A stretch of DNA of 64,000 nucleotides from an uncultured Bacteroidales bacterium. GTDB taxonomy: Bacteria > Bacteroidota > Bacteroidia > Bacteroidales > UBA1402. Positions within the stretch are counted from its first letter, which is position 1, and each line of letters starts with the position of its first letter. The DNA lies in assembly GCA_964502355.1 (NCBI GenBank), contig CAZCWK010000005.1, positions 19,332 through 83,331 of the forward strand, read 5' to 3'. Position numbers and translations under genes: made by a program. The notes under the pieces were generated by a model. That model saw nothing but the letters and a program-made list of their open reading frames with translations, did not search any database and had not been told where the DNA came from. Shown here one piece after another: positions 32,464-44,071 of the stretch.

Positions 32464-32471
32464 TATATTTG
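32464..32471 (+). promoter_or_regulatory. Bacteroidota -7 promoter box for the thr leader/operon
   Basis: TATATTTG lies 30 nt upstream of the leader ATG at 32501. Confidence 0.5.
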
Positions 32472-32500: not shown

Positions 32501-32551
32501 ATGCTGTATTTCAATTACATGCGAACTACCACGACCCCTTGGGGGGTATAA
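32501..32551 (+). promoter_or_regulatory. candidate thr operon leader peptide (MLYFNYMRTTTTPWGV)
   Basis: A 16-codon ORF with four consecutive Thr codons (ACT ACC ACG ACC, 32525-32536), 200 nt upstream of thrA. The Thr/Pro codons overlap a C-run that can pair with either of two downstream G-runs. Confidence 0.55.
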
Positions 32552-32751
32552 TTTTCACCTTTTCACGCAGGGGTTATCGGAGTGTATCCTTTGCTTATTC
32601 TTTTCAAAGTTGATTTTTCACTAATAATTTTATAGATTTTGACAGAAATTGTGCGATGCACTAGGGATGTTGTATGTCCGACGTTTTTGTCAGAGTTAAT
32701 TAATAACAAAACCTGATTTGATTTATTAATCAGGCCTAAAAATAATAACAC

Positions 32752-35187
32752 ATGAAAGTAATGAAATTCGGCGGAACATCCGTAGGTTCCGTGAACAGCA
32801 TTCTGACAATCAAACAAATCGTAAGTTCTGTTGAGGAACCTGTAGTTGTAGTTGTCTCAGCTGTAGGTGGTGTAACAGATTTGTTGATTAAAACATCAAA
32901 ATTAGCATCGGAAGGTAATAGTGAGTATATCAAAAGTTTCCAGCAAATCAGGGAAATTCATGAGAAACTGTTGAATGGTTTATTCTCTGACACAGAGCTT
33001 GAGGCCGTCCAGTTCTCCGTTGATCAATTACTGGATGAACTGGGGAATATACTTAAGGGGATTTATCTCTTACAGGATTGTTCGACAAAGACACATGATG
33101 CCGTATTAAGCTATGGTGAGAGGATTTCTTCATTTTTTATTTCAAAAGTGCTGAATGCCGGGCATCTTGATTCAAGGGAATTTATAAAGACCGACGAGCA
33201 ATTCGGAAAGCATATAGTTAATTTTAAAGTAACCGCTGAAAAAATCAAAGAAAAATTCGCGGATGCCCCTAAGGTTACTGTAGTTGGTGGTTTCATCTCA
33301 AGCAGTGCTAAAACGGGTGAAACTACAAATTTAGGACGTGGTGGCTCTGACTATTCTGCTGCTATTATTTCAGCAGATCTCAATGCCTCGATTCTCGAAA
33401 TATGGACTGATGTTGATGGTTTCATGACTGCCGACCCCAAGGTCATAGATAACGCATATGTAATAAATAATCTTACATATGTTGAGGCAATGGAATTGTG
33501 CAATTTTGGCGCAAAAGTCATTTATCCTCCCACGATTTTCCCGGTTTTTCATAAGAATATTCCTATAAAAATTAAAAATACTTTTAATCCTGATTATCCC
33601 GGAACTTTAATTACTAAAGAGAAATCACCTAATGGTGAGAACAAGTCCATTAAGGGAATATCTTCTATTAATGATACAAGCCTGATTACCATCGAAGGTT
33701 TGGGTATGGTTGGCGTTATTGGTGTTAATTACAGGATATTCAAAGCTTTGGCAAAAGCCGGAATTTCTGTGTTTATGGTTTCTCAGGCATCTTCTGAAAA
33801 TACAACTTCGATTGGTGTCAGATCTGCTGATGCTGACGATGCTGTAGAGGTTTTACTTGAAGAATTCAGCAAAGAAATAGAGATGGGTGAAATCAATCAT
33901 ATTTTTGCTGAAAACGATCTTGCAACAGTGGCAATCGTTGGAGAAAATATGAAAAGAACCCCGGGTATCGCAGGTAAACTTTTTGGAACATTAGGACGAA
34001 ATGGTATTAATGTGATTGCTTGTGCTCAGGGTGCTTCTGAAACAAATATATCTTTTGTTACCAATAACTCTTCACTGCGTAAAGCATTGAATGTTATTCA
34101 TGATTCTTTCTTCCTTTCAGATTATCAGGTTCTCAATATTTTCCTAACCGGGATTGGCACTGTAGGTGGAAGTTTACTTGATCAGATAAAGCAGCAACAG
34201 CCGCTTTTGATGAAACAAAATGCATTAAAACTCAATGTTGTTGGTATAGCTGATATTGATAAAGCCATTTTCAACAGAGAAGGGATTGATCTTGAAAATT
34301 ATAAAGAAAAACTTTATAGTGAAGGTATTAATACATCTCCTGAATTATTGAGAGATGAAATACTGAAAATGAATATTTTCAATTCGGTATTTGTCGATTG
34401 TACAGCAAGCGGCAAGATTGCTGATCTTTATAAAGAACTATTGGAAAACAACGTATCTGTTGTTGCCGCAAATAAGATTGCGGCTTCTTCTGATTATAAC
34501 AATTATCAGTCATTAAAAAATATTGCCAGAAAGAAAGGTATTAAGTTCTTGTTTGAAACTAATGTAGGTGCCGGACTCCCGATTATAAATACAATGAATA
34601 ATCTGATTAACTCCGGTGACAGGATTTTAAAACTGGAAGCGGTACTTTCAGGTACACTGAATTTTATATTTAATACTATAAGTTCTGAAATACCTTTAAG
34701 CAAAGCTATTAAAATGGCGCAGGAAGCCAGATATTCAGAACCTGATCCGAGAATTGACCTTAGTGGTAAGGATGTAATCAGAAAGCTTGTCATATTGGCA
34801 AGGGAAGCAGGTTACAAGGTTGAACAGGATGATGTTGTCAAGAATCTTTTCGTACCGGATAAATATTTCCAGGGTACTCTTGAAGATTTCTGGTCAACGA
34901 TTTCTGAAATGGACAATGATTTTGAAAATAAGAGAAAGATTCTTGAAGATCAGTCTAAACGCTGGAGATTTGTTGCAACCATGGATAATGGTGCATGTTC
35001 AGTTGGTTTGAAAGAGGTTTCATCATCACATCCTTTTTATGATTTGGAGGGAAGCAATAATCTTATCATGATTACTACCGAACGATATTTACAATATCCG
35101 ATGATGATAAAAGGATATGGTGCAGGTGCAAGTGTAACTGCTGCCGGTGTATTTGCCGATATTATAAGTATTGCCAATATTCGCTAA
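32752..35187 (+). CDS. thrA: bifunctional aspartokinase / homoserine dehydrogenase
   Basis: N-terminal aspartokinase (MKVMKFGGTSVGS...), ACT region, and C-terminal homoserine dehydrogenase (NIFLTGIGTVGGSLL...GAGLPII...). Length 811 aa. Confidence 0.9.
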   Translation: MKVMKFGGTSVGSVNSILTIKQIVSSVEEPVVVVVSAVGGVTDLLIKTSKLASEGNSEYIKSFQQIREIHEKLLNGLFSDTELEAVQFSVDQLLDELGNILKGIYLLQDCSTKTHDAVLSYGERISSFFISKVLNAGHLDSREFIKTDEQFGKHIVNFKVTAEKIKEKFADAPKVTVVGGFISSSAKTGETTNLGRGGSDYSAAIISADLNASILEIWTDVDGFMTADPKVIDNAYVINNLTYVEAMELCNFGAKVIYPPTIFPVFHKNIPIKIKNTFNPDYPGTLITKEKSPNGENKSIKGISSINDTSLITIEGLGMVGVIGVNYRIFKALAKAGISVFMVSQASSENTTSIGVRSADADDAVEVLLEEFSKEIEMGEINHIFAENDLATVAIVGENMKRTPGIAGKLFGTLGRNGINVIACAQGASETNISFVTNNSSLRKALNVIHDSFFLSDYQVLNIFLTGIGTVGGSLLDQIKQQQPLLMKQNALKLNVVGIADIDKAIFNREGIDLENYKEKLYSEGINTSPELLRDEILKMNIFNSVFVDCTASGKIADLYKELLENNVSVVAANKIAASSDYNNYQSLKNIARKKGIKFLFETNVGAGLPIINTMNNLINSGDRILKLEAVLSGTLNFIFNTISSEIPLSKAIKMAQEARYSEPDPRIDLSGKDVIRKLVILAREAGYKVEQDDVVKNLFVPDKYFQGTLEDFWSTISEMDNDFENKRKILEDQSKRWRFVATMDNGACSVGLKEVSSSHPFYDLEGSNNLIMITTERYLQYPMMIKGYGAGASVTAAGVFADIISIANIR

Positions 35188-37956: not shown

Positions 37957-38003
37957 AAAAAAAAGCGGATATTATCGGTGAAATGGTAATATCCGCTTTT
38001 TTT
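37957..38003. terminator. bidirectional intrinsic terminator between thrC and tyrA
   Basis: A8, then a 10-bp stem GCGGATATTA / TAATATCCGC (37965-37974 / 37987-37996), then T7. Confidence 0.8.
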
Positions 38004-38775
38004 ATTCAATATTCTCACGAACTGCTTTCAGGAAGGATTGCATCCTTTCAGCATCTTTTTCTTTGATTATATCGAGCAAATCTCCCAATTTTCCCATTAT
38101 TCTCTCTATTTGTTCGGGTGCAAAAGGGTTGAATAGTATTTCCTGGAGCAGATAATCATCTTCTGACATTAGACCCTGAGCTATGGACATATGTTTTTTA
38201 AAAGTAGTACCCGGTGCTTCCTGATGCTCCATAACAGATCCGAAAACCAGGGTTGAGGCAAATGGTATTGACAGCGAGTATGCAGTGGTTTGGTCATGCT
38301 TTTCAAAGCTGTATTCGAATATTCTCAAATGTAGTGAATTGTAAACATCTTTGAAAAAAGCTTTTCCCAAAAAATCGGATTCCTCAATTATTATGGCACT
38401 TTGTGTGCTGAGATCACTCAGACTGGCAAAAGTCGGACCAAACATCGGGTGAGTGGAAACAAACCTGAAACCACTTTTCTCGTAAAAATCTTTAAGTCCG
38501 GTCTTGACAGAAGCTATATCTGAGAGAATGCAACTGGCAGGAAGATAAGGAATTACTTTTTGGAAGGCTTCAATAGTATATTTTATTGTGACAGCATTTA
38601 TCATCAGTTCAGGTTTAAATGACCTGACTTCTTCCAGATCATCTGTTCTGATGGCATTATAAACATATCTAAGCTGTTTTGGATTAGTATCATATAAGCA
38701 GACTTCATGATGAAAGCTTAACGCATCAGCAAAAAATCTGCCCATTTTACCGGCACCCATTATAAGTATCTTCAT
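38002..38775 (-). CDS. tyrA: prephenate dehydrogenase
   Basis: N-terminal Rossmann motif MKILIMGAGKMG. Size and position match the last gene of the aromatic amino-acid operon. Confidence 0.75.
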   Translation of the reverse strand: MKILIMGAGKMGRFFADALSFHHEVCLYDTNPKQLRYVYNAIRTDDLEEVRSFKPELMINAVTIKYTIEAFQKVIPYLPASCILSDIASVKTGLKDFYEKSGFRFVSTHPMFGPTFASLSDLSTQSAIIIEESDFLGKAFFKDVYNSLHLRIFEYSFEKHDQTTAYSLSIPFASTLVFGSVMEHQEAPGTTFKKHMSIAQGLMSEDDYLLQEILFNPFAPEQIERIMGKLGDLLDIIKEKDAERMQSFLKAVRENIE

Positions 38776-38788
38776 TTTTTTACAATTT

Positions 38789-39892
38789 TCAGATGTCTGT
38801 ATTATTTTTGTTCATTACTTCCATCTGCTGTCTGATAGATTCTTCGTGAATGGCTTCAAGTATTTTCTGCATGCAATCTCCGTCAATTCCAAAACTAACA
38901 GCCTGCTTAATCCTGTCTTCTAGAATCTCGCTGTATCTTGCCGTCTGTAAAATCTGCATATTATGTTCTTTTTTGAAAGTTCCGATTTCACGGGATATTC
39001 TCATACGTTTGGACAGTATTGAGAGCATTTCATCATCTATTTCATCAATTTGCTTTCTCAATTCACTTAAACTTTCAGTAGTTTGGTTCATATCTCTGAT
39101 TACAAGCAGATTGAGTATATAGTCAAGGATATCAGGTGTTACCTGTTGGTCCTTGTCGCTCCATGCGTTGTCAGGGTCACAGTGAGATTCAATAATCAAA
39201 CCATCAAAATTCAGATCCATTGCTTGCTGGGAAATCGATGAAATCAGTTCTCTTTTACCTCCTATATGACTTGGGTCACAGAACATGGGAATATTTTCAA
39301 ATCTTCTTCTTAGTTCAATTGGTATATGCCACATAGGTAGATTCCTGTAAATCTTTTTATCTGAAGAGCTGAATCCTCTGTGTATAACACCAAGTTTTCT
39401 TATTCCGGCCAGATAAAGTCTTTCAATACCTCCAATCCACAAGTCAAGATCCGGATTTACAGGATTTTTTATAAGCACCGGCATGTCTGATCCTTCAAGA
39501 GCATCTGCTATCTCCTGAACGGCAAAAGGATTTGCAGATGTGCGTGCTCCAATCCAAAGAATGTCAACGCCATATTTTATTGCTTCAGCGACATGTTTAG
39601 CAGTTGCTACTTCTGTCGCTGTGTACATTCCCAGTTCATTTTTTACTCTTTTAAGCCAAACCAATCCTGGGGTACCAATACCTTCAAATGCTCCCGGTCT
39701 TGTCCTTGGTTTCCATATGCCTGCTCTGAATATTTTAACTCCCCTGTCATGAAGTTGCTTAGCAGTAGTCATTACCTGTTCTTCTGTTTCAGCACTACAT
39801 GGTCCTGAGATTACTATCGGTCTTTTTGGATCAATACCCGGCAGGAGTATCGATTCGAATTGCATTTTTTCCATATATATGATTTTTATCAA
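38789..39892 (-). CDS. bifunctional 3-deoxy-7-phosphoheptulonate (DAHP) synthase / chorismate mutase type II
   Basis: Type I-beta DAHP/KDO8P-like barrel (VISGPCSAE...FRAGIWKPRT...CDPSH). The C-terminal chorismate mutase helix is LRKQIDEIDDEMLSILSKRMRISREIGTFK. The start may be an internal Met (MEKMQFES). Confidence 0.85.
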   Translation of the reverse strand: MIKIIYMEKMQFESILLPGIDPKRPIVISGPCSAETEEQVMTTAKQLHDRGVKIFRAGIWKPRTRPGAFEGIGTPGLVWLKRVKNELGMYTATEVATAKHVAEAIKYGVDILWIGARTSANPFAVQEIADALEGSDMPVLIKNPVNPDLDLWIGGIERLYLAGIRKLGVIHRGFSSSDKKIYRNLPMWHIPIELRRRFENIPMFCDPSHIGGKRELISSISQQAMDLNFDGLIIESHCDPDNAWSDKDQQVTPDILDYILNLLVIRDMNQTTESLSELRKQIDEIDDEMLSILSKRMRISREIGTFKKEHNMQILQTARYSEILEDRIKQAVSFGIDGDCMQKILEAIHEESIRQQMEVMNKNNTDI

Positions 39893-39908: not shown

Positions 39909-41072
39909 TTAAAGTATCGCTTTAATTCTTTCCAAAGCTTTGTTCAGATTATCTTCTTTACAGCATAATGAAAGTCTTATATACCGGTTTCCATTACTTC
40001 CAAAAATAAATCCGGGTGTGATAAATACTTTCGCGTCATATAAGATTTTATCGGCTACTTCGCCGGCATCATTGTATTTATCGGGTATTTTACCCCACAG
40101 GAACATTCCTGATTGTTTAGGATCCCATGTACAGCCAAGCGCAATAAAGATTTCTTCGGCAATTTTTCTCCTTTTTGAATAAACTTCATTCATTTTCTGA
40201 AACCAGGATTCATCAGCTTTCAAAGCTTCCACTGCAGCAACCATCATAGGCCTGAACTGACCTGAATCAACATTACTTTTAACTTTTACTATCCATTGCA
40301 GGAATTCAGGATTAGTAGCAACCATTCCCAACCTCCAGCCCGGCATATTATGAGACTTACTCATTGAGTTTAGTTCAATACAAATATCTTTAGCTCCGGG
40401 AACGCTTAATATGCTGAGATATTCATTACTTAAGATGAAACTGTATGGATTATCATTACAAATAACAATGCCATTTTGCTTACCAAAATCAACCAGTTTC
40501 TTAAATAAATCCAATGTAGCCCTGCCGCCTGTCGGCATATTAGGATAATTTACCCACATAAGTTTTACATTGCTCAAATCCAACTTCTCAAGCGCGTCAA
40601 AATCAGGTTGCCACCCTTTTTTTTCATCAAGATCGTATGAAACAATATTTGCCTGAACCAGATTGCTTACTGATGTATAGGTCGGATATCCGGGATTAGG
40701 TACAAGTACTCCATCCCCGGGATTAAGGAAGGCCATGGAAATGTGGAGTATTCCTTCTTTTGAGCCTATTAATGGCTGAATTTCTTTTTCAGGATCAAGT
40801 ATAACATCAAACCATCTTTTATACCACTCAGCATATGATTTTCTTAATTGAGGCAAACCCTGAAATGGTTGATAACCATGAGCGTCATGTTTAGCGGCAT
40901 CTTCATTTAAAGCTTTAATTGTCTCTTCAGAAGGAGGGAGGTCGGGACTGCCTATACCGAGACTAATTACATTCAGGCCCGCAGAGTTCATTTCTGCGAC
41001 TTCCTTGAGTTTCTTTGAGAAATAGTATTCAGAGACATTGTTTAGTCTTTCTGATGGTCTTATTTGCTTCAT
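39909..41072 (-). CDS. class I/II PLP-dependent aminotransferase (probable aromatic/prephenate aminotransferase)
   Basis: NPGYPTY, NYPNMPTG and the SMSKSHNMPGWRLG PLP-lysine motif. Operon context with pheA and tyrA. Confidence 0.8.
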   Translation of the reverse strand: MKQIRPSERLNNVSEYYFSKKLKEVAEMNSAGLNVISLGIGSPDLPPSEETIKALNEDAAKHDAHGYQPFQGLPQLRKSYAEWYKRWFDVILDPEKEIQPLIGSKEGILHISMAFLNPGDGVLVPNPGYPTYTSVSNLVQANIVSYDLDEKKGWQPDFDALEKLDLSNVKLMWVNYPNMPTGGRATLDLFKKLVDFGKQNGIVICNDNPYSFILSNEYLSILSVPGAKDICIELNSMSKSHNMPGWRLGMVATNPEFLQWIVKVKSNVDSGQFRPMMVAAVEALKADESWFQKMNEVYSKRRKIAEEIFIALGCTWDPKQSGMFLWGKIPDKYNDAGEVADKILYDAKVFITPGFIFGSNGNRYIRLSLCCKEDNLNKALERIKAIL

Positions 41073-41118: not shown

Positions 41119-41961
41119 TCAAACTAGTTGCTGACCTATTTTGTATTCTCCAAGTATCCTCAGATTTTTGGTAAGAGGTCGTATAGCATCAAGACTTTGT
41201 CTGTATTTCATATAATCCAGATATGAAAGATCTATAAAAAATAAGTATTCCCATTCATGACCTATTATTGGCATTGATTGAATTTTTGTCAGATTATCAT
41301 GGTAGAATGAGAGAACAGACAATACCTGTGATAATGTCCCTTCTTCGTGTTTCGTCATGAAAACTATTGATGACTTGTTTGTATCGGTTGGCTCGATGTA
41401 CTGATCGGCAGTCCATCTGTCAGCTATAATCAGAAATCTGGTGAAATTTCTTTTGTTGGTTTCTATGCCGGCCTCAAGTATTTCAAGTCCGTATATTTCA
41501 GCAGCTAGTTTACTGCATATGGCAGCTCTCCCCGTAATGTTACCTTCAGAAATTGCTTTAGCGCTTAATGCTGTATCTTCACTTTCTTCTATTTTTATCC
41601 ATGAATGATCCTTCAGATAATCTTCGCATTGCATCAATGCAATGGGGTGAGAATGAACCTCTGTAATATCTTCTATCTTTTGACCCGGCAATACAGCTAT
41701 AACATGACTTATCCTTAGTTTTATTTCTCCGATAATACAGGTTTCACTCTCGCGCAGAAGGTTGTGGTTGGCTAAAAGATTTCCTGCAATCGTGTTTTCT
41801 ATAGCAATAATACCCAGTATGTTGTTGTCTTTTCTCATAGTGGAAAAGACGTCTTTAAAAGTATGACATGCCACAATTTCTACTTCTTCACCGTTGAAAT
41901 ACTTTCTGGCAGCAATATCATGATATGCTCCTGCTACTCCCTGGATTGCTATTCGTTTCAT
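41119..41961 (-). CDS. pheA: prephenate dehydratase
   Basis: MKRIAIQGVAGAYHDIAA...ENTIAGNL...TRFLII. The C-terminal ACT region is GTLSQVLSVLSFYHDNLTKIQSMP. Confidence 0.85.
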   Translation of the reverse strand: MKRIAIQGVAGAYHDIAARKYFNGEEVEIVACHTFKDVFSTMRKDNNILGIIAIENTIAGNLLANHNLLRESETCIIGEIKLRISHVIAVLPGQKIEDITEVHSHPIALMQCEDYLKDHSWIKIEESEDTALSAKAISEGNITGRAAICSKLAAEIYGLEILEAGIETNKRNFTRFLIIADRWTADQYIEPTDTNKSSIVFMTKHEEGTLSQVLSVLSFYHDNLTKIQSMPIIGHEWEYLFFIDLSYLDYMKYRQSLDAIRPLTKNLRILGEYKIGQQLV

Positions 41962-41972
41962 ACATTAATTTT

Positions 41973-42006
41973 TAAAAAAAAGTCCCGCCTTTTTCCGGGC
42001 GGGACT
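41973..42006 (-). terminator. attenuator terminator immediately upstream of pheA
   Basis: The minus strand reads AGUCCCGCC-cggaaaaa-GGCGGGACU followed by U8, ending 11 nt before the pheA ATG (41961). Confidence 0.8.
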
Positions 42007-42053
42007 TTCTGTCAATATTTTTATTTATAAATTTTGCATACTAAATCCCGCTC

Positions 42054-42107
42054 TTACTGTTGGTAGTAAAAGTAAAAATAAAAGAATGCAAAACTGTTTT
42101 TTCTCAT
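42054..42107 (-). promoter_or_regulatory. Phe/Tyr-rich leader peptide of the pheA operon (MRKNSFAFFYFYFYYQQ)
   Basis: 17 codons plus TAA. Nine of ten consecutive codons (6-15) are Phe or Tyr. The segment right after the stop (GAGCGGGAUUU, 42053-42043) is complementary to the 5' arm of the terminator. Confidence 0.8.
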
Positions 42108-42125
42108 TGTTTAATAATTTGGCTA

Positions 42126-42133
42126 CAAAAGTA
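42126..42133 (-). promoter_or_regulatory. Bacteroidota -7 promoter box for the phe leader/operon
   Basis: The minus strand reads TACTTTTG, 19 nt upstream of the leader ATG at 42107. Confidence 0.5.
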
Positions 42134-42169
42134 TGTATTTTTTTGTAAATTGTTACAATTTCCCCTTAT

Positions 42170-44071
42170 TTATTTATAAAAAATACATTTTTCCTGATTA
42201 TAATGAATCTGCCCTTCATCACAAAGATACCTGATTACCTTGATTATCTTTTTTTTATCTCCTTCAATAGCATCTATCAGACCTGTATTTGTGAACTCTC
42301 CATTTTCAAGTTTACTTAAAACAGTTTCTTTAATTGAGTTAAATTCATATCTTTTTAATCCGGTTTCATTCTTTGACAGGCAAACATCGCAATGTCCGCA
42401 ATCATGCGTTTCTTTTTGACCGAAATAATTCAGAAGAATTCGGCTTCTGCATATATTATTTTCATTTGCATAAGATATAACTGATTCAATCCTTTTTTTT
42501 GAACGATCAAACCTTTCTTCATAAATACTTCTGGAAATTATAATTCTTTCGGTTTCCTCCCGGTTGACTTTGAAAATGATATACGGAGTTTTTTTACGGG
42601 GTATATAACTTATTACATTCATTCTGGATAATCCCAGAAGAATGTTGTATACATTATCAACTGTCAAACCAATTCTTGCTGAAATTATTTCTTCCTGAAT
42701 TGGGGTATAATCATTGAAAAGTCCGGTGTATGAACGCAACAGGATTTGCAGCACTTCATCGCTATACTTGTCGTCTGTCTTTAGTTTGTATAATTCATCT
42801 CTGTTTAGTTGAAACCATATTCTCGAAGGATTGTCAATTTCGTCAGTCAGTTCCAGATATCCGGCCTGTTCAAGAATTTTCAGAGAGTTGAAAGCCTGCA
42901 GGTAATTAAATTTGTACTTACCACAGAAATCATTTAAGTCAAATGCAAACATTGCACCTTTACCACTACCGGATCCTATCTGATAGTAATAAGCCAGTGA
43001 TTCATAGACTCTTCTGATTACATCTTTTTGTGGGAAGCTATCGCTTAAGTGTTTTTTTAGTCTGCTTGAATCAGATTTGTGATAAAGTAAAACTGCAAAA
43101 GCCTTTTCTCCGTCTCGTCCGGCTCTGCCGGCTTCCTGGAAATATGCTTCTATGGAATCAGGTATGGCCATATGTATAACCAACCTTACATCTGCTTTAT
43201 CAATTCCCATACCAAAAGCATTGGTGGCTACTATGACCCTGCATTCGCCTTTTTTCCACGCCAGTTGTTTGGAGTCTTTTGATTCATTTGTGAGTCCGGC
43301 ATGAAAATAATCTGATGAAATATCATTTTTCCTCAAAAATGATGATATTTCTCTTGCATCCTTTCTGCTGCTGACATATACTACTGCTGAACCCGGTGTT
43401 TTCTCAAGAATATGCAGGAGCTCTTTATCTTTATCTTCCGTATTCCTGACAACATATGCAAGATTTTTTCTCTCAAAGCTTTTTACAAAGACATTTTTTG
43501 TTTTAAAACTGAGTTTGTTCTGAATATCATCAACTACGGCAGGAGTAGCAGTTGCTGTCAGGGCGAGCACCGGAACATCAGGTAAAAGAACTCTGACATC
43601 TGAGATGTTTAAATAAGAAGGTCTGAAATCATATCCCCATTGTGAAATACAATGTGCTTCATCAACCGCGATCAGGTTAATGTTCATATTTATTATTCTT
43701 TCTCTGAATAGTTGAGTAGCCAGTCTTTCAGGAGAGATATAAAGGAATTTAAAATCACCATAATGACAATTGTCCAGAGTCAATACTATTTCCTGTCTTG
43801 TCATTCCTGAGTAAATGGCTGCAGCACGTATACCGGTCTTTTTCAGGTTGGAGACCTGGTCTTTCATTAAAGCAACCAAAGGTGTAATAACCAGGCACAA
43901 TCCATCCATAACCAGTGAAGGAATCTGAAAAGTCAAAGACTTTCCTCCTCCGGTCGGCATTAAGGCAAGTGTATCTTTACCTTCACAAACCGAAGCGATT
44001 ATTTCTTCCTGGAGTTCCCGGAAATTTTCATACCCCCAGTACTTTTTAAGTATTTCCTGGTATGTATTCAT
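42170..44071 (-). CDS. recQ: RecQ-family ATP-dependent DNA helicase
   Basis: MPTGGGKSLTFQIP, DEAHCISQWGYDFRPSY, TATAT, and the Zn-finger C-x-C pattern HDCGHCDVC. Confidence 0.85.
   Translation of the reverse strand: MNTYQEILKKYWGYENFRELQEEIIASVCEGKDTLALMPTGGGKSLTFQIPSLVMDGLCLVITPLVALMKDQVSNLKKTGIRAAAIYSGMTRQEIVLTLDNCHYGDFKFLYISPERLATQLFRERIINMNINLIAVDEAHCISQWGYDFRPSYLNISDVRVLLPDVPVLALTATATPAVVDDIQNKLSFKTKNVFVKSFERKNLAYVVRNTEDKDKELLHILEKTPGSAVVYVSSRKDAREISSFLRKNDISSDYFHAGLTNESKDSKQLAWKKGECRVIVATNAFGMGIDKADVRLVIHMAIPDSIEAYFQEAGRAGRDGEKAFAVLLYHKSDSSRLKKHLSDSFPQKDVIRRVYESLAYYYQIGSGSGKGAMFAFDLNDFCGKYKFNYLQAFNSLKILEQAGYLELTDEIDNPSRIWFQLNRDELYKLKTDDKYSDEVLQILLRSYTGLFNDYTPIQEEIISARIGLTVDNVYNILLGLSRMNVISYIPRKKTPYIIFKVNREETERIIISRSIYEERFDRSKKRIESVISYANENNICRSRILLNYFGQKETHDCGHCDVCLSKNETGLKRYEFNSIKETVLSKLENGEFTNTGLIDAIEGDKKKIIKVIRYLCDEGQIHYNQEKCIFYK

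What the first reader, a model, noticed from the sequence alone, without database searches (positions are those of the whole stretch)
41973..42133. Complete ribosome-mediated attenuator (Phe/Tyr leader peptide) controlling the pheA-aminotransferase-DAHPS/CM-tyrA operon
All parts are readable on the minus strand:
- a -7 box TACTTTTG (42133-42126)
- a leader ORF MRKNSFAFFYFYFYYQQ (42107-42054)
- directly after its stop, GCGGGAUUU (42051-42043), which can form 9 bp (one G-U) with AAAGUCCCGC (42008-41999), the 5' arm of the terminator
- the terminator AGUCCCGCC/GGCGGGACU plus U8, ending 11 nt before the pheA ATG

The mix of Phe and Tyr codons matches an operon that makes both amino acids. Leader-peptide attenuation is textbook for Proteobacteria. 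I am unsure how well it is documented experimentally in Bacteroidota.
Basis: partly seen in the sequence, partly recalled or inferred. Interest (0 to 1): 0.6.

Follow-up and report, generated by a model that had tools for sequence, protein, structure and literature searches.

The report
Phe/Tyr leader-peptide attenuator before pheA
A 17-codon mini-gene packed with phenylalanine and tyrosine codons, followed by two mutually exclusive RNA hairpins, very probably turns on the Phe/Tyr biosynthesis operon only when these amino acids run short; the mechanism is textbook and a matching element has been reported in a flavobacterium.

Summary
On the minus strand there is a Bacteroidetes-type -7 box (42133-42126), a leader ORF MRKNSFAFFYFYFYYQQ (42107-42054), an antiterminator arm GCGGGAUUU (42051-43), and an 11-bp terminator plus U8 (42008-41974). 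These lie 12 nt (not 11) before pheA.

Downstream is a pheA-aminotransferase-DAHPS/chorismate mutase-tyrA operon.

Of 80 related Bacteroidales pheA loci, 77 carry the same arrangement:
- Promoter box: 71/72 loci, against 3% background.
- F/Y-dense ORF: found nowhere else in 757 kb.
- Terminator: 97% paired.
- Antiterminator: its 5' arm changes together with the terminator arms (40 haplotypes).
- Core codon changes: 91% still encode Phe or Tyr.

Folding with a ribosome footprint shows the antiterminator forming while the A site is on any F/Y codon. It is lost once the ribosome reaches the end of the ORF (72/74 sequences).

The element belongs to no Rfam family (Phe_leader 34 bits, threshold 55). 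A Flavobacterium psychrophilum transcriptome paper already lists an element with the same layout. Verdict: real and well supported, but a new member of a known kind. No experiment exists for this organism.

The parts
42126..42133 (-). Bacteroidetes-type -7 promoter box TACTTTTG (TAnnTTTG). Its end is 18 nt upstream of the leader ATG. The TSS is inferred at about 42119-42121.
   Evidence: Sequence. TAnnTTTG lies within 60 nt upstream of the leader ATG in 71/72 related loci, against 3% of random 60-nt windows. The TSS is not measured.
42054..42107 (-). Leader ORF pheL-like, MRKNSFAFFYFYFYYQQ plus stop (5 Phe and 4 Tyr in 17 codons).
   Evidence: Translation. An orthologous F/Y-rich ORF of 16-26 codons is present in 77/80 loci.
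42063..42092 (-). Regulatory codons: codons 6-15 (F A F F Y F Y F Y Y).
   Evidence: Nine core codon positions are at least 80% F/Y across 74 sequences. 160 of 176 non-consensus codons still encode F or Y, against an expected 22%.
42086..42095 (-). P1 5' strand (region 1), AGUUUUGCAU, inside the leader ORF (codons 5-8).
   Evidence: Present in the MFE fold. A1 columns 13-22 with 81-90 are 81% paired, and 8 pairs show changes on both sides. RNAalifold did not predict it independently.
42065..42072 (-). P2 5' strand, CUUUUACU (F-Y codons), pairing with AGUAAGAG.
   Evidence: MFE fold. A1 columns 39-46 with 61-68 are 94% paired, mostly through A-U/G-U changes.
42051..42058 (-). P2 3' strand, AGUAAGAG. 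It includes the stop codon and the first base of the antiterminator arm.
42043..42051 (-). Antiterminator 5' arm (region 2a), GCGGGAUUU, starting 3 nt after the stop codon.
   Evidence: 9 bp with 42007-41999, -11.3 kcal/mol. A1 columns 66-76 with 138-148 are 83% paired, against 34-51% when slid. The core pairs switch G-C to A-U together with the terminator arm.
42030..42039 (-). P1 3' strand (region 2b), AUGCAAAAUU.
41998..42008 (-). Shared strand (region 3), AAAGUCCCGCC: the 3' arm of the antiterminator and the 5' arm of the terminator.
41979..41989 (-). Terminator 3' arm (region 4), GGCGGGACUUU. The loop CGGAAAAA lies at 41997-41990.
   Evidence: -19.9 kcal/mol. 97% paired across 74 sequences, with 6 pairs changed on both sides. 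RNAalifold predicted the same 12 pairs independently.
41974..41981 (-). U8 tract of the intrinsic terminator; the expected 3' end of the attenuated transcript.
   Evidence: Sequence. A T-run of at least 6 follows the hairpin in all 74 aligned sequences.
41119..41961 (-). pheA (prephenate dehydratase), first structural gene.
   Evidence: Pfam PF00800, E = 1.2e-52.
39909..41072 (-). Class I/II aminotransferase (probable aromatic/prephenate aminotransferase).
   Evidence: Pfam PF00155, E = 1.2e-60.
38789..39892 (-). Bifunctional DAHP synthase / chorismate mutase.
   Evidence: Pfam PF00793 + PF01817.
38002..38775 (-). tyrA-like prephenate dehydrogenase, last gene of the operon.
   Evidence: Pfam PF02153, E = 2.6e-10. 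The gene order pheA-AT-DAHPS/CM-tyrA is kept in 57 loci, and in more where contigs are cut short.

Best explanation
This is a ribosome-mediated (leader-peptide) transcription attenuator that senses charged tRNA-Phe and tRNA-Tyr and controls the pheA-aminotransferase-DAHPS/CM-tyrA operon.

Proposed sequence of events:
1. Transcription starts a few bases after the -7 box (inferred).
2. The 17-codon leader is translated while RNA polymerase moves on.
3. When Phe and Tyr are plentiful, the ribosome runs to the last codons or the stop codon at 42056-54. Its footprint covers GCGGGAUUU (42051-43). Region 3 (42008-41998) then has no upstream partner and pairs with region 4, so transcription ends at the U8 tract (41981-74), 12 nt before pheA.
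4. When either amino acid is scarce, the ribosome stalls on one of the ten F/Y-rich codons (42092-42063). That melts hairpins P1 and P2 and leaves GCGGGAUUU free. It pairs with region 3 before region 4 is made, the terminator cannot form, and the operon is transcribed.
5. Without any translation, P1 (42095-86 with 42039-30) and P2 form first and partly hold the antiterminator arm, which should favour termination.

Shown here: the parts, their conservation, co-variation, the codon constraint, and the in-silico switch. Inferred: the TSS, coupling of translation to transcription, and the actual response to starvation.
For: - Anatomy is confirmed.
- The operon makes both Phe and Tyr, matching the mixed codons.
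- 77/80 Bacteroidales pheA loci have the F/Y leader plus terminator.
- The element follows pheA, not the upstream gene: recQ is adjacent in only about 8 of 80 loci.
- The promoter box is present in 71/72 loci against 3% background.
- The terminator is 97% paired with 6 compensatory pairs and was predicted independently by RNAalifold.
- The antiterminator is 83% paired, against 34-51% for slid controls. Among 40 haplotypes of regions 2a/3/4, region 2a follows region 3, for example GCGGGA/UCCCGC, GCAGGA/UCCUGC, ACGGG/CCCGU, ACAGGA/UCCUGU.
- P1 is 81% paired with G-C to A-U switches.
- 91% of codon variants at nine core positions stay F or Y, with free F/Y interchange.
- With a 28-nt ribosome mask, the antiterminator is in the MFE structure of the nascent RNA for every A-site position on the F/Y codons. 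It vanishes at the last 1-3 codons or the stop in 72/74 sequences, and also in the F. psychrophilum element.
- In F. psychrophilum an element with the same layout has a mapped TSS, a separate 5' transcript segment, and read-through that is highest in minimal nutrient media (PMC9723704 supplement).
Against: - There are no transcript or reporter data for this organism or for any Bacteroidales.
- The covariation counts come from related sequences, so a few events may be counted many times.
- P1 and P2 are A/U-rich and RNAalifold did not predict them.
- For the window, the ribosome-free nascent RNA is nearly iso-energetic between the P1 state (-19.1 kcal/mol) and the antiterminator state (-20.8). 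In 44 of 74 sequences the antiterminator forms at equilibrium without a ribosome. Termination in the absence of translation therefore depends on folding order, which was not modelled.
- The leader 5' UTR would be only about 12-14 nt and has no Shine-Dalgarno sequence. From my own knowledge this is usual for Bacteroidota, but leader translation is unverified.
Confidence: 0.85

Rival explanations
1. The terminator/antiterminator switch is real, but a trans-acting factor sets it (an RNA-binding protein, an uncharged tRNA as in T-box leaders, or a small-molecule riboswitch). On this view the short ORF is incidental.
For: The hairpin switch alone would be compatible with this. P1 and the spacer could in principle form a binding site.
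Against: - No T-box or other riboswitch family matches, even at E <= 10.
- The ORF, its ATG and its frame are kept in 77/80 loci.
- 91% of substitutions at core codons keep F or Y, and F and Y interchange freely. This fits a codon-identity constraint and does not fit a fixed binding site.
- The boundary where the antiterminator becomes blocked coincides with the end of the F/Y run.
Confidence: 0.04
2. The hairpin plus U-tract is simply the terminator of the upstream recQ-like gene (44071-42170), and the F/Y ORF is a chance product of AT-rich sequence.
For: recQ is on the same strand and has no other obvious terminator before the hairpin.
Against: - The leader plus terminator stays with pheA in loci where the upstream gene is not recQ (about 70 of 80).
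- A conserved promoter box lies between recQ and the leader.
- F/Y-dense ORFs occur nowhere else in 64 kb + 757 kb in six frames.
- A plain terminator does not explain the antiterminator co-variation.
Confidence: 0.01
3. Besides acting in cis, the terminated leader RNA of about 145 nt, or the F/Y-rich peptide, has a function of its own in trans. The precedent is the Sinorhizobium trp attenuator products rnTrpL and peTrpL.
For: - The precedent exists in the literature (PMC7298713 and PMC7968998, listed).
- The nucleotide stretch UUUUACUUUUAC and the N-terminal M-x-R-F-S-F-T-Y are more conserved than codon identity alone requires.
Against: - P2 pairing (CUUUUAC with GUAAGAG/GUGAAGG) already explains the extra nucleotide conservation.
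- The peptide tail differs completely between the short and long leader classes.
- No target was sought or found.
Confidence: 0.07
4. The leader ORF acts mainly on translation of pheA, by reinitiation or by unmasking the start region, rather than on transcription termination.
For: In the window only 12 nt separate the U-tract from the pheA ATG. Short leader-to-gene distances have been proposed to favour reinitiation (PMC4833913).
Against: - The leader stop is 92 nt from the pheA ATG in the window.
- The distance from terminator to ATG ranges from 12 to 133 nt among loci.
- A canonical GC-rich hairpin plus a T-run of at least 6 is universal.
Confidence: 0.03

Closest known systems
Enterobacterial pheL-pheA attenuator (Rfam Phe_leader, RF01859)
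   Same: A short leader ORF rich in Phe codons, alternative antiterminator and terminator hairpins, and a position directly upstream of pheA. It is the best Rfam match over the full model length.
   Different: - The score is 34.3 bits against a gathering score of 55, so it is not a sequence or structure member.
- E. coli pheL carries Phe codons only and controls pheA alone (own knowledge). Here Phe and Tyr codons alternate and the operon also holds DAHPS/CM and tyrA.
- The antiterminator 5' arm lies inside the P1 loop and is occluded directly by the terminating ribosome.
[quoted passage not shown] 2021, PMC9723704, Table S7)
   Same: - Same phylum, and the same start of the operon (pheA followed by an aminotransferase).
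- An F/Y(/W)-rich leader, MNTNNTFYSNNSFYFYWNIGRDCYMVI.
- GGGAUUGU pairs with ACAAUCCC, the 5' arm of a terminator AAUCCCGUC/GGCGGGAUU + U9.
- The ribosome-mask folding gives the same switch.
   Different: - The leader is longer (27 aa), with fewer and more scattered regulatory codons plus one Trp.
- Sequence similarity to the Bacteroidales profile is weak (nhmmer 20.4 bits with a large composition bias), so common descent is plausible but not shown.
- That paper gives transcriptome evidence but no structural or covariation analysis.
Bacteroid-trp leader (Rfam RF01692; Weinberg et al. 2010, PMC2864571)
   Same: A cis-regulatory leader upstream of an aromatic amino-acid (trp) operon in Bacteroidetes. 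It is described as a tryptophan peptide leader RNA in PMC9723704.
   Different: It is a different operon with different regulatory codons, and there is no match to this region even at E <= 10.
Multivalent attenuators of E. coli thr (Thr+Ile) and ilvGMEDA (Ile/Leu/Val) operons
   Same: One leader carries codons for more than one end product of the operon it controls (own knowledge). Thr_leader is the second-best Rfam match (28.7 bits).
   Different: Different amino acids, no sequence relationship, and a score below threshold.

Membership tests
Ribosome-mediated (leader-peptide) transcription attenuators | Short translatable ORF in the 5' leader with clustered codons for the amino acid(s) made by the operon | tested here: met
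   9 F/Y among 17 codons. The operon encodes Phe and Tyr branch enzymes. Conserved in 77/80 loci, and 91% of codon variants stay F/Y.
Ribosome-mediated (leader-peptide) transcription attenuators | Intrinsic terminator (GC-rich hairpin + U-tract) between the leader ORF and the first structural gene | tested here: met
   An 11-bp stem of -19.9 kcal/mol plus U8. 97% paired with 6 compensatory pairs, and predicted independently by RNAalifold.
Ribosome-mediated (leader-peptide) transcription attenuators | Antiterminator helix that shares a strand with the terminator and is mutually exclusive with it | tested here: met
   9 bp in the window. 83% paired against 34-51% when slid. Region 2a co-varies with region 3 across 40 haplotypes.
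Ribosome-mediated (leader-peptide) transcription attenuators | Geometry such that a ribosome stalled on the regulatory codons allows the antiterminator, and a ribosome at the end of the ORF prevents it | tested here: met
   Masked-footprint MFE folding of the nascent RNA gives the switch at the end of the F/Y run in the window and in 72/74 sequences. A terminating ribosome overlaps the antiterminator core in 73/74. This test is in silico only.
Ribosome-mediated (leader-peptide) transcription attenuators | Upstream 1:2-type hairpin that forms when the leader is not translated | tested here: inconclusive
   P1 is 81% paired with compensatory changes, but RNAalifold did not predict it. In the window it is only 1.7 kcal/mol less stable than the antiterminator state.
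Ribosome-mediated (leader-peptide) transcription attenuators | Premature termination in vivo that is relieved by starvation for the cognate amino acid | not testable with these tools
   The only evidence is indirect: condition-dependent read-through of the F. psychrophilum element with the same layout (PMC9723704).
Rfam Phe_leader RF01859 | Covariance-model score at or above the gathering threshold (55 bits) | tested here: not met
   34.3 bits, E = 0.0011. No family reaches its gathering score anywhere in the window.
Rfam Bacteroid-trp RF01692 | Match to the covariance model | tested here: not met
   Not among the 31 matches at E <= 10 for 41500-42600.
T-box leaders (RF00230) | Match to the T-box model (specifier loop, T-box sequence) | tested here: not met
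   Not among the matches at E <= 10.
Flavobacteriaceae pheA 5' element (PMC9723704) | Same order of parts (F/Y leader, antiterminator arm near the ORF end, terminator + U-tract) upstream of pheA-aminotransferase | tested here: met
   Published sequence analysed. Sequence-level homology is weak (20.4 bits with high bias), so shared ancestry is inconclusive.

The most novel reading that the evidence does not exclude
The element represents a coherent family of bivalent Phe/Tyr attenuators that is widespread in Bacteroidales, possibly in Bacteroidota as a whole, and has not yet been catalogued. Its topology differs from the enterobacterial pheL. The antiterminator arm sits inside the loop of a P1 hairpin and is blocked directly by the terminating ribosome. 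Two interchangeable designs exist, with the stop codon either just before or about 16 nt after the start of that arm. In Parabacteroides the terminator is weakened by G-U pairs relative to the antiterminator. It would merit its own RNA-family entry and could serve as a native amino-acid-responsive switch in gut Bacteroidales.
Probability: 0.5. Interest if true: 0.35.

Novelty: new member of a known kind. Interest (0 to 1): 0.3.

Why it matters
It shows that classical leader-peptide attenuation, best known from Proteobacteria, controls aromatic amino-acid synthesis across several Bacteroidales lineages (Parabacteroides, Paludibacter and related uncultured groups). In this group translation initiation and promoters differ from E. 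coli, and few cis-regulatory mechanisms have been tested.

The 74-sequence alignment with co-varying helices is enough to seed an RNA-family model, which would improve annotation of gut metagenomes.

The element also offers a compact, native Phe/Tyr-responsive switch for engineering gut commensals.

It does not change any general concept.

Tried and rejected
- The terminator scan did not list the main terminator. Its greedy stem extension probably uses up the first Us and leaves too short a tail, so I treat this as a tool artefact. The hairpin is clear.
- In one search I gave wrong coordinates for the terminator pairs. The 'T 0' counts and the 'T helix alone 0.7' value there are meaningless. 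One search corrects them; the dot-bracket strings do show the terminator.
- Equilibrium folding of the full transcript always gives the terminator, with or without a ribosome mask. That test is therefore uninformative, and I used the nascent transcript lacking region 4 instead.
- The single genome-contig scan kept only the best 80 of 566 relatives, all Bacteroidales close to Parabacteroides/Paludibacter. The protein search listed only close relatives. I could not check Bacteroides, Prevotella, Cytophagia or Chlorobi.
- L071 looked like a poly-Leu leader, but it is a one-base homopolymer shift of the F/Y frame.
- I tested whether the all-Phe leader in L049 goes with loss of tyrA. The contig ends before that position, so there is no answer.
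- Literature:
  - Vitreschak et al. 2004 (FEMS Microbiol Lett), which from memory predicts attenuators in Bacteroidetes/Chlorobi, is not held.
  - The B. thetaiotaomicron transcriptome paper mentions leader-like sORFs only in general terms, and its supplements contain no F/Y peptide.
  - Other searches found nothing specific to Bacteroidales pheA.

Full report
**1. The observation**

- TACTTTTG at 42133-42126.
- An ATG at 42107 opening an ORF that translates to MRKNSFAFFYFYFYYQQ, with its stop at 42056-42054.
- GCGGGAUUU at 42051-42043.
- The hairpin AAAGUCCCGCC (42008-41998) / GGCGGGACUUU (41989-41979), with loop CGGAAAAA and U8 at 41981-41974.

The pheA ATG is at 41961, so the gap after the U-tract is 12 nt, not 11.

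The 164-nt leader folds far better than shuffles (z = -4.76). The helices evaluated alone give -19.9 kcal/mol for the terminator and -11.3 kcal/mol for the 9-bp antiterminator.

Pfam identifies the four downstream minus-strand genes as prephenate dehydratase, a class I/II aminotransferase, a DAHP synthase-chorismate mutase fusion, and a prephenate dehydrogenase. The upstream gene is a RecQ-like helicase.

A segment with at least 9 F/Y in 11 codons occurs exactly once in the six frames of the 64-kb window.

**2. Related sequences**

One scan of species-representative genomes with the PheA protein returned 80 loci, all Bacteroidales. They include Parabacteroides, Paludibacter/Paludibacteraceae, Tannerellaceae, Ca. 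Enterocola, Ca. Azobacteroides, Ca. Symbiothrix and Massilibacteroides. L001 (99% PheA identity) is an uncultured Bacteroidales MAG and is probably the same species as the window.

Of the 80 loci, 77 have an F/Y-rich ORF of 16-26 codons followed by a GC-rich hairpin and a T-run upstream of pheA. The remaining cases are as follows:
- L061 is cut by a contig end but still shows the 3' half of the element.
- L071 has the element with one extra T in a T-run, which shifts the frame to poly-Leu. This is most likely a homopolymer assembly error.
- L008 (GC-rich, with pheA not in the operon) lacks the element.
- L076 lacks it within the 200 nt available.

In 757 kb of these loci, F/Y-dense segments occur only upstream of pheA.

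The operon order pheA-aminotransferase-DAHPS/CM-tyrA is kept, whereas recQ is the upstream neighbour in only about 8 loci. The element therefore belongs to pheA and is not the end of the upstream gene.

TAnnTTTG lies 18-45 nt upstream of the leader ATG in 71 of 72 loci, against 3% of random 60-nt windows.

**3. Structure and co-variation**

I aligned 74 distinct leader regions (A1).

*Terminator.* A1 columns 137-148 with 158-169 are 97% paired, and six pairs change on both sides. RNAalifold predicted exactly these 12 pairs on its own.

*Antiterminator.* Columns 66-76 with 138-148 are 83% paired, against 34-51% when the partner is slid by 1-3 columns. The core pairs switch between G-C and A-U:
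- 67-147: GC 45, AU 21.
- 68-146: GC 63, AU 8.
- 70-144: AU 54, GC 19.

Listing the haplotypes of regions 2a, 3 and 4 shows that region 2a follows region 3 whenever region 3 changes: GCGGGA/UCCCGC, GCAGGA/UCCUGC, ACGGG/CCCGU, ACAGGA/UCCUGU. There are 40 haplotypes. All have at least 6 of 8 antiterminator pairs except two sequences that MAFFT misaligned by one column. A plain terminator requires only regions 3 and 4 to co-vary, so the three-way pattern is the strongest evidence for the alternative pairing.

- P1 pairs AGUUUUGCAU (42095-86, leader codons 5-8) with AUGCAAAAUU (42039-30). It is 81% paired, with switches such as G-C to A-U at columns 19-84 and C-G to U-A at 15-88.
- P2 pairs CUUUUACU (42072-65) with AGUAAGAG (42058-51). 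It is 94% paired.

P1 and P2 are A/U-rich and RNAalifold did not recover them, so I regard them as probable rather than established.

All these counts are made on related sequences, so they count sequences rather than independent events.

**4. Evidence that the ORF is read as codons**

At nine core codon positions at least 80% of residues are F or Y. Of 176 non-consensus codons, 160 (91%) still encode F or Y, where random single-base changes would give 2 in 9. At three positions F and Y are about equally frequent. The constraint is therefore "Phe or Tyr codon", not a particular peptide or a fixed RNA sequence.

Leaders carry a median of 5 Phe and 5 Tyr codons.

**5. How it most likely works**

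I folded the nascent transcript up to the point where region 4 has not yet been made, with 28 nt masked around each possible A-site position.

*Window.* The full 9-bp antiterminator is in the MFE structure for A-site positions 1-15, which include all F/Y codons. It is reduced at codon 16 and absent at codon 17 and at the stop.

*All sequences.* The same boundary, at the end of the F/Y run, appears in 72 of 74 sequences. It also appears in the published F. psychrophilum leader.

*Two designs*:
- In 24 sequences, including the window, the stop codon lies 2-4 nt before the antiterminator core.
- In about 50 sequences the ORF runs through the core and stops about 16 nt after the core begins.
- In 73 of 74 sequences a terminating ribosome overlaps the core.

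*Without a ribosome.* In the window the P1 state (-19.1 kcal/mol) and the antiterminator state (-20.8) are nearly equal. The antiterminator forms at equilibrium in 44 of 74 sequences. Whether untranslated transcripts terminate thus depends on folding order: P1 is complete before region 3 is transcribed. I did not model this.

*Shown versus inferred.* Shown: the parts, their conservation, co-variation, the codon constraint and the thermodynamic switch. Inferred: the TSS, translation of the leader, coupling to RNA polymerase and the response to starvation.

**6. Comparison with what is known**

The best Rfam match is the enterobacterial Phe_leader over its full length, but at 34.3 bits against a threshold of 55. 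Thr_leader is next at 28.7 bits. Neither Bacteroid-trp nor T-box appears even at E <= 10. No family reaches its threshold anywhere in the window. The element works like pheL but is not a member of that family.

The closest published case is in the supplement of Guerin et al. 2021 (PMC9723704). [quoted passage not shown] That element has a mapped TSS, a separate 5' transcript segment, read-through under specific conditions and highest operon expression in minimal nutrient media. The main text says such elements upstream of pheA and hisG are conserved in Flavobacteriaceae and have no Rfam hit.

That sequence has the same order of parts and the same predicted switch. Its similarity to the Bacteroidales profile is weak (20.4 bits with high bias).

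Weinberg et al. 2010 described the Bacteroid-trp leader in this phylum.

From memory, Vitreschak et al. 2004 predicted attenuators in Bacteroidetes/Chlorobi. I could not read that paper.

The B. thetaiotaomicron transcriptome paper mentions leader-like sORFs only in general terms.

I found no mutational or termination assay for any Bacteroidota attenuator.

**7. Verdict**

It is a new member of a known kind: a bivalent Phe/Tyr leader-peptide attenuator, conserved across several Bacteroidales lineages, absent from Rfam, and anticipated by a transcriptome study in Flavobacteriia.

A specialist would not be surprised. The value is in annotation, in a ready seed alignment, and in a tractable native switch. 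Interest 0.3; confidence in the mechanism 0.85.

Noticed in passing
window 32502-32552 (+), upstream of 32752-35187 (+): A short ORF, MLYFNYMRTTTTPWGV, with four consecutive Thr codons lies about 200 nt upstream of an aspartokinase/homoserine dehydrogenase gene. That gene is followed by a phosphoglycerate-mutase-like gene and by threonine synthase (Pfam). A TATATTTG box at 32464-32471 precedes the ORF. This is a possible Thr leader, but no clear GC hairpin plus U-tract was seen and the region folds no better than shuffles (z = -0.78).
   Followed up: partly
L080:4688-4807 and L080:4835-4965: One Paludibacteraceae genome carries two tandem F/Y leader plus terminator units in front of pheA (MKKVFNAYYFFYFYFFRK and MKVYGRFYFYFYFYFFMVS). 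This is a doubled attenuator.
   Followed up: no
L071, about 4830-4990: In a MAG labelled Phocaeicola vulgatus, the leader has one extra T (AGCTTTTACAT instead of AGCTTTACAT), so the F/Y run reads as poly-Leu. Frame 0 downstream restores FTYYFYYFYFY. This is probably a homopolymer assembly error, and the locus looks Parabacteroides-like.
   Followed up: partly
L008 and L076, upstream of pheA: These are the two loci without the leader. L008 is GC-rich, its pheA is not followed by the other operon genes, and another coding region abuts it. L076 has pheA-AT-DAHPS/CM but no tyrA within 2.5 kb, and no leader or terminator in the 200 nt available.
   Followed up: partly
A1 columns 144-145 with 161-162 (Parabacteroides loci such as L011, L033): In most Parabacteroides sequences the terminator stem has two adjacent G-U wobbles (UG 39, GU 38), where the antiterminator uses Watson-Crick pairs with the same strand. 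This may tune the balance between the two structures.
   Followed up: no
window 1-64000: No Rfam family reaches its gathering score on either strand of the whole window, so no annotated riboswitch, tRNA-like or sRNA family is present by that criterion.
   Followed up: no
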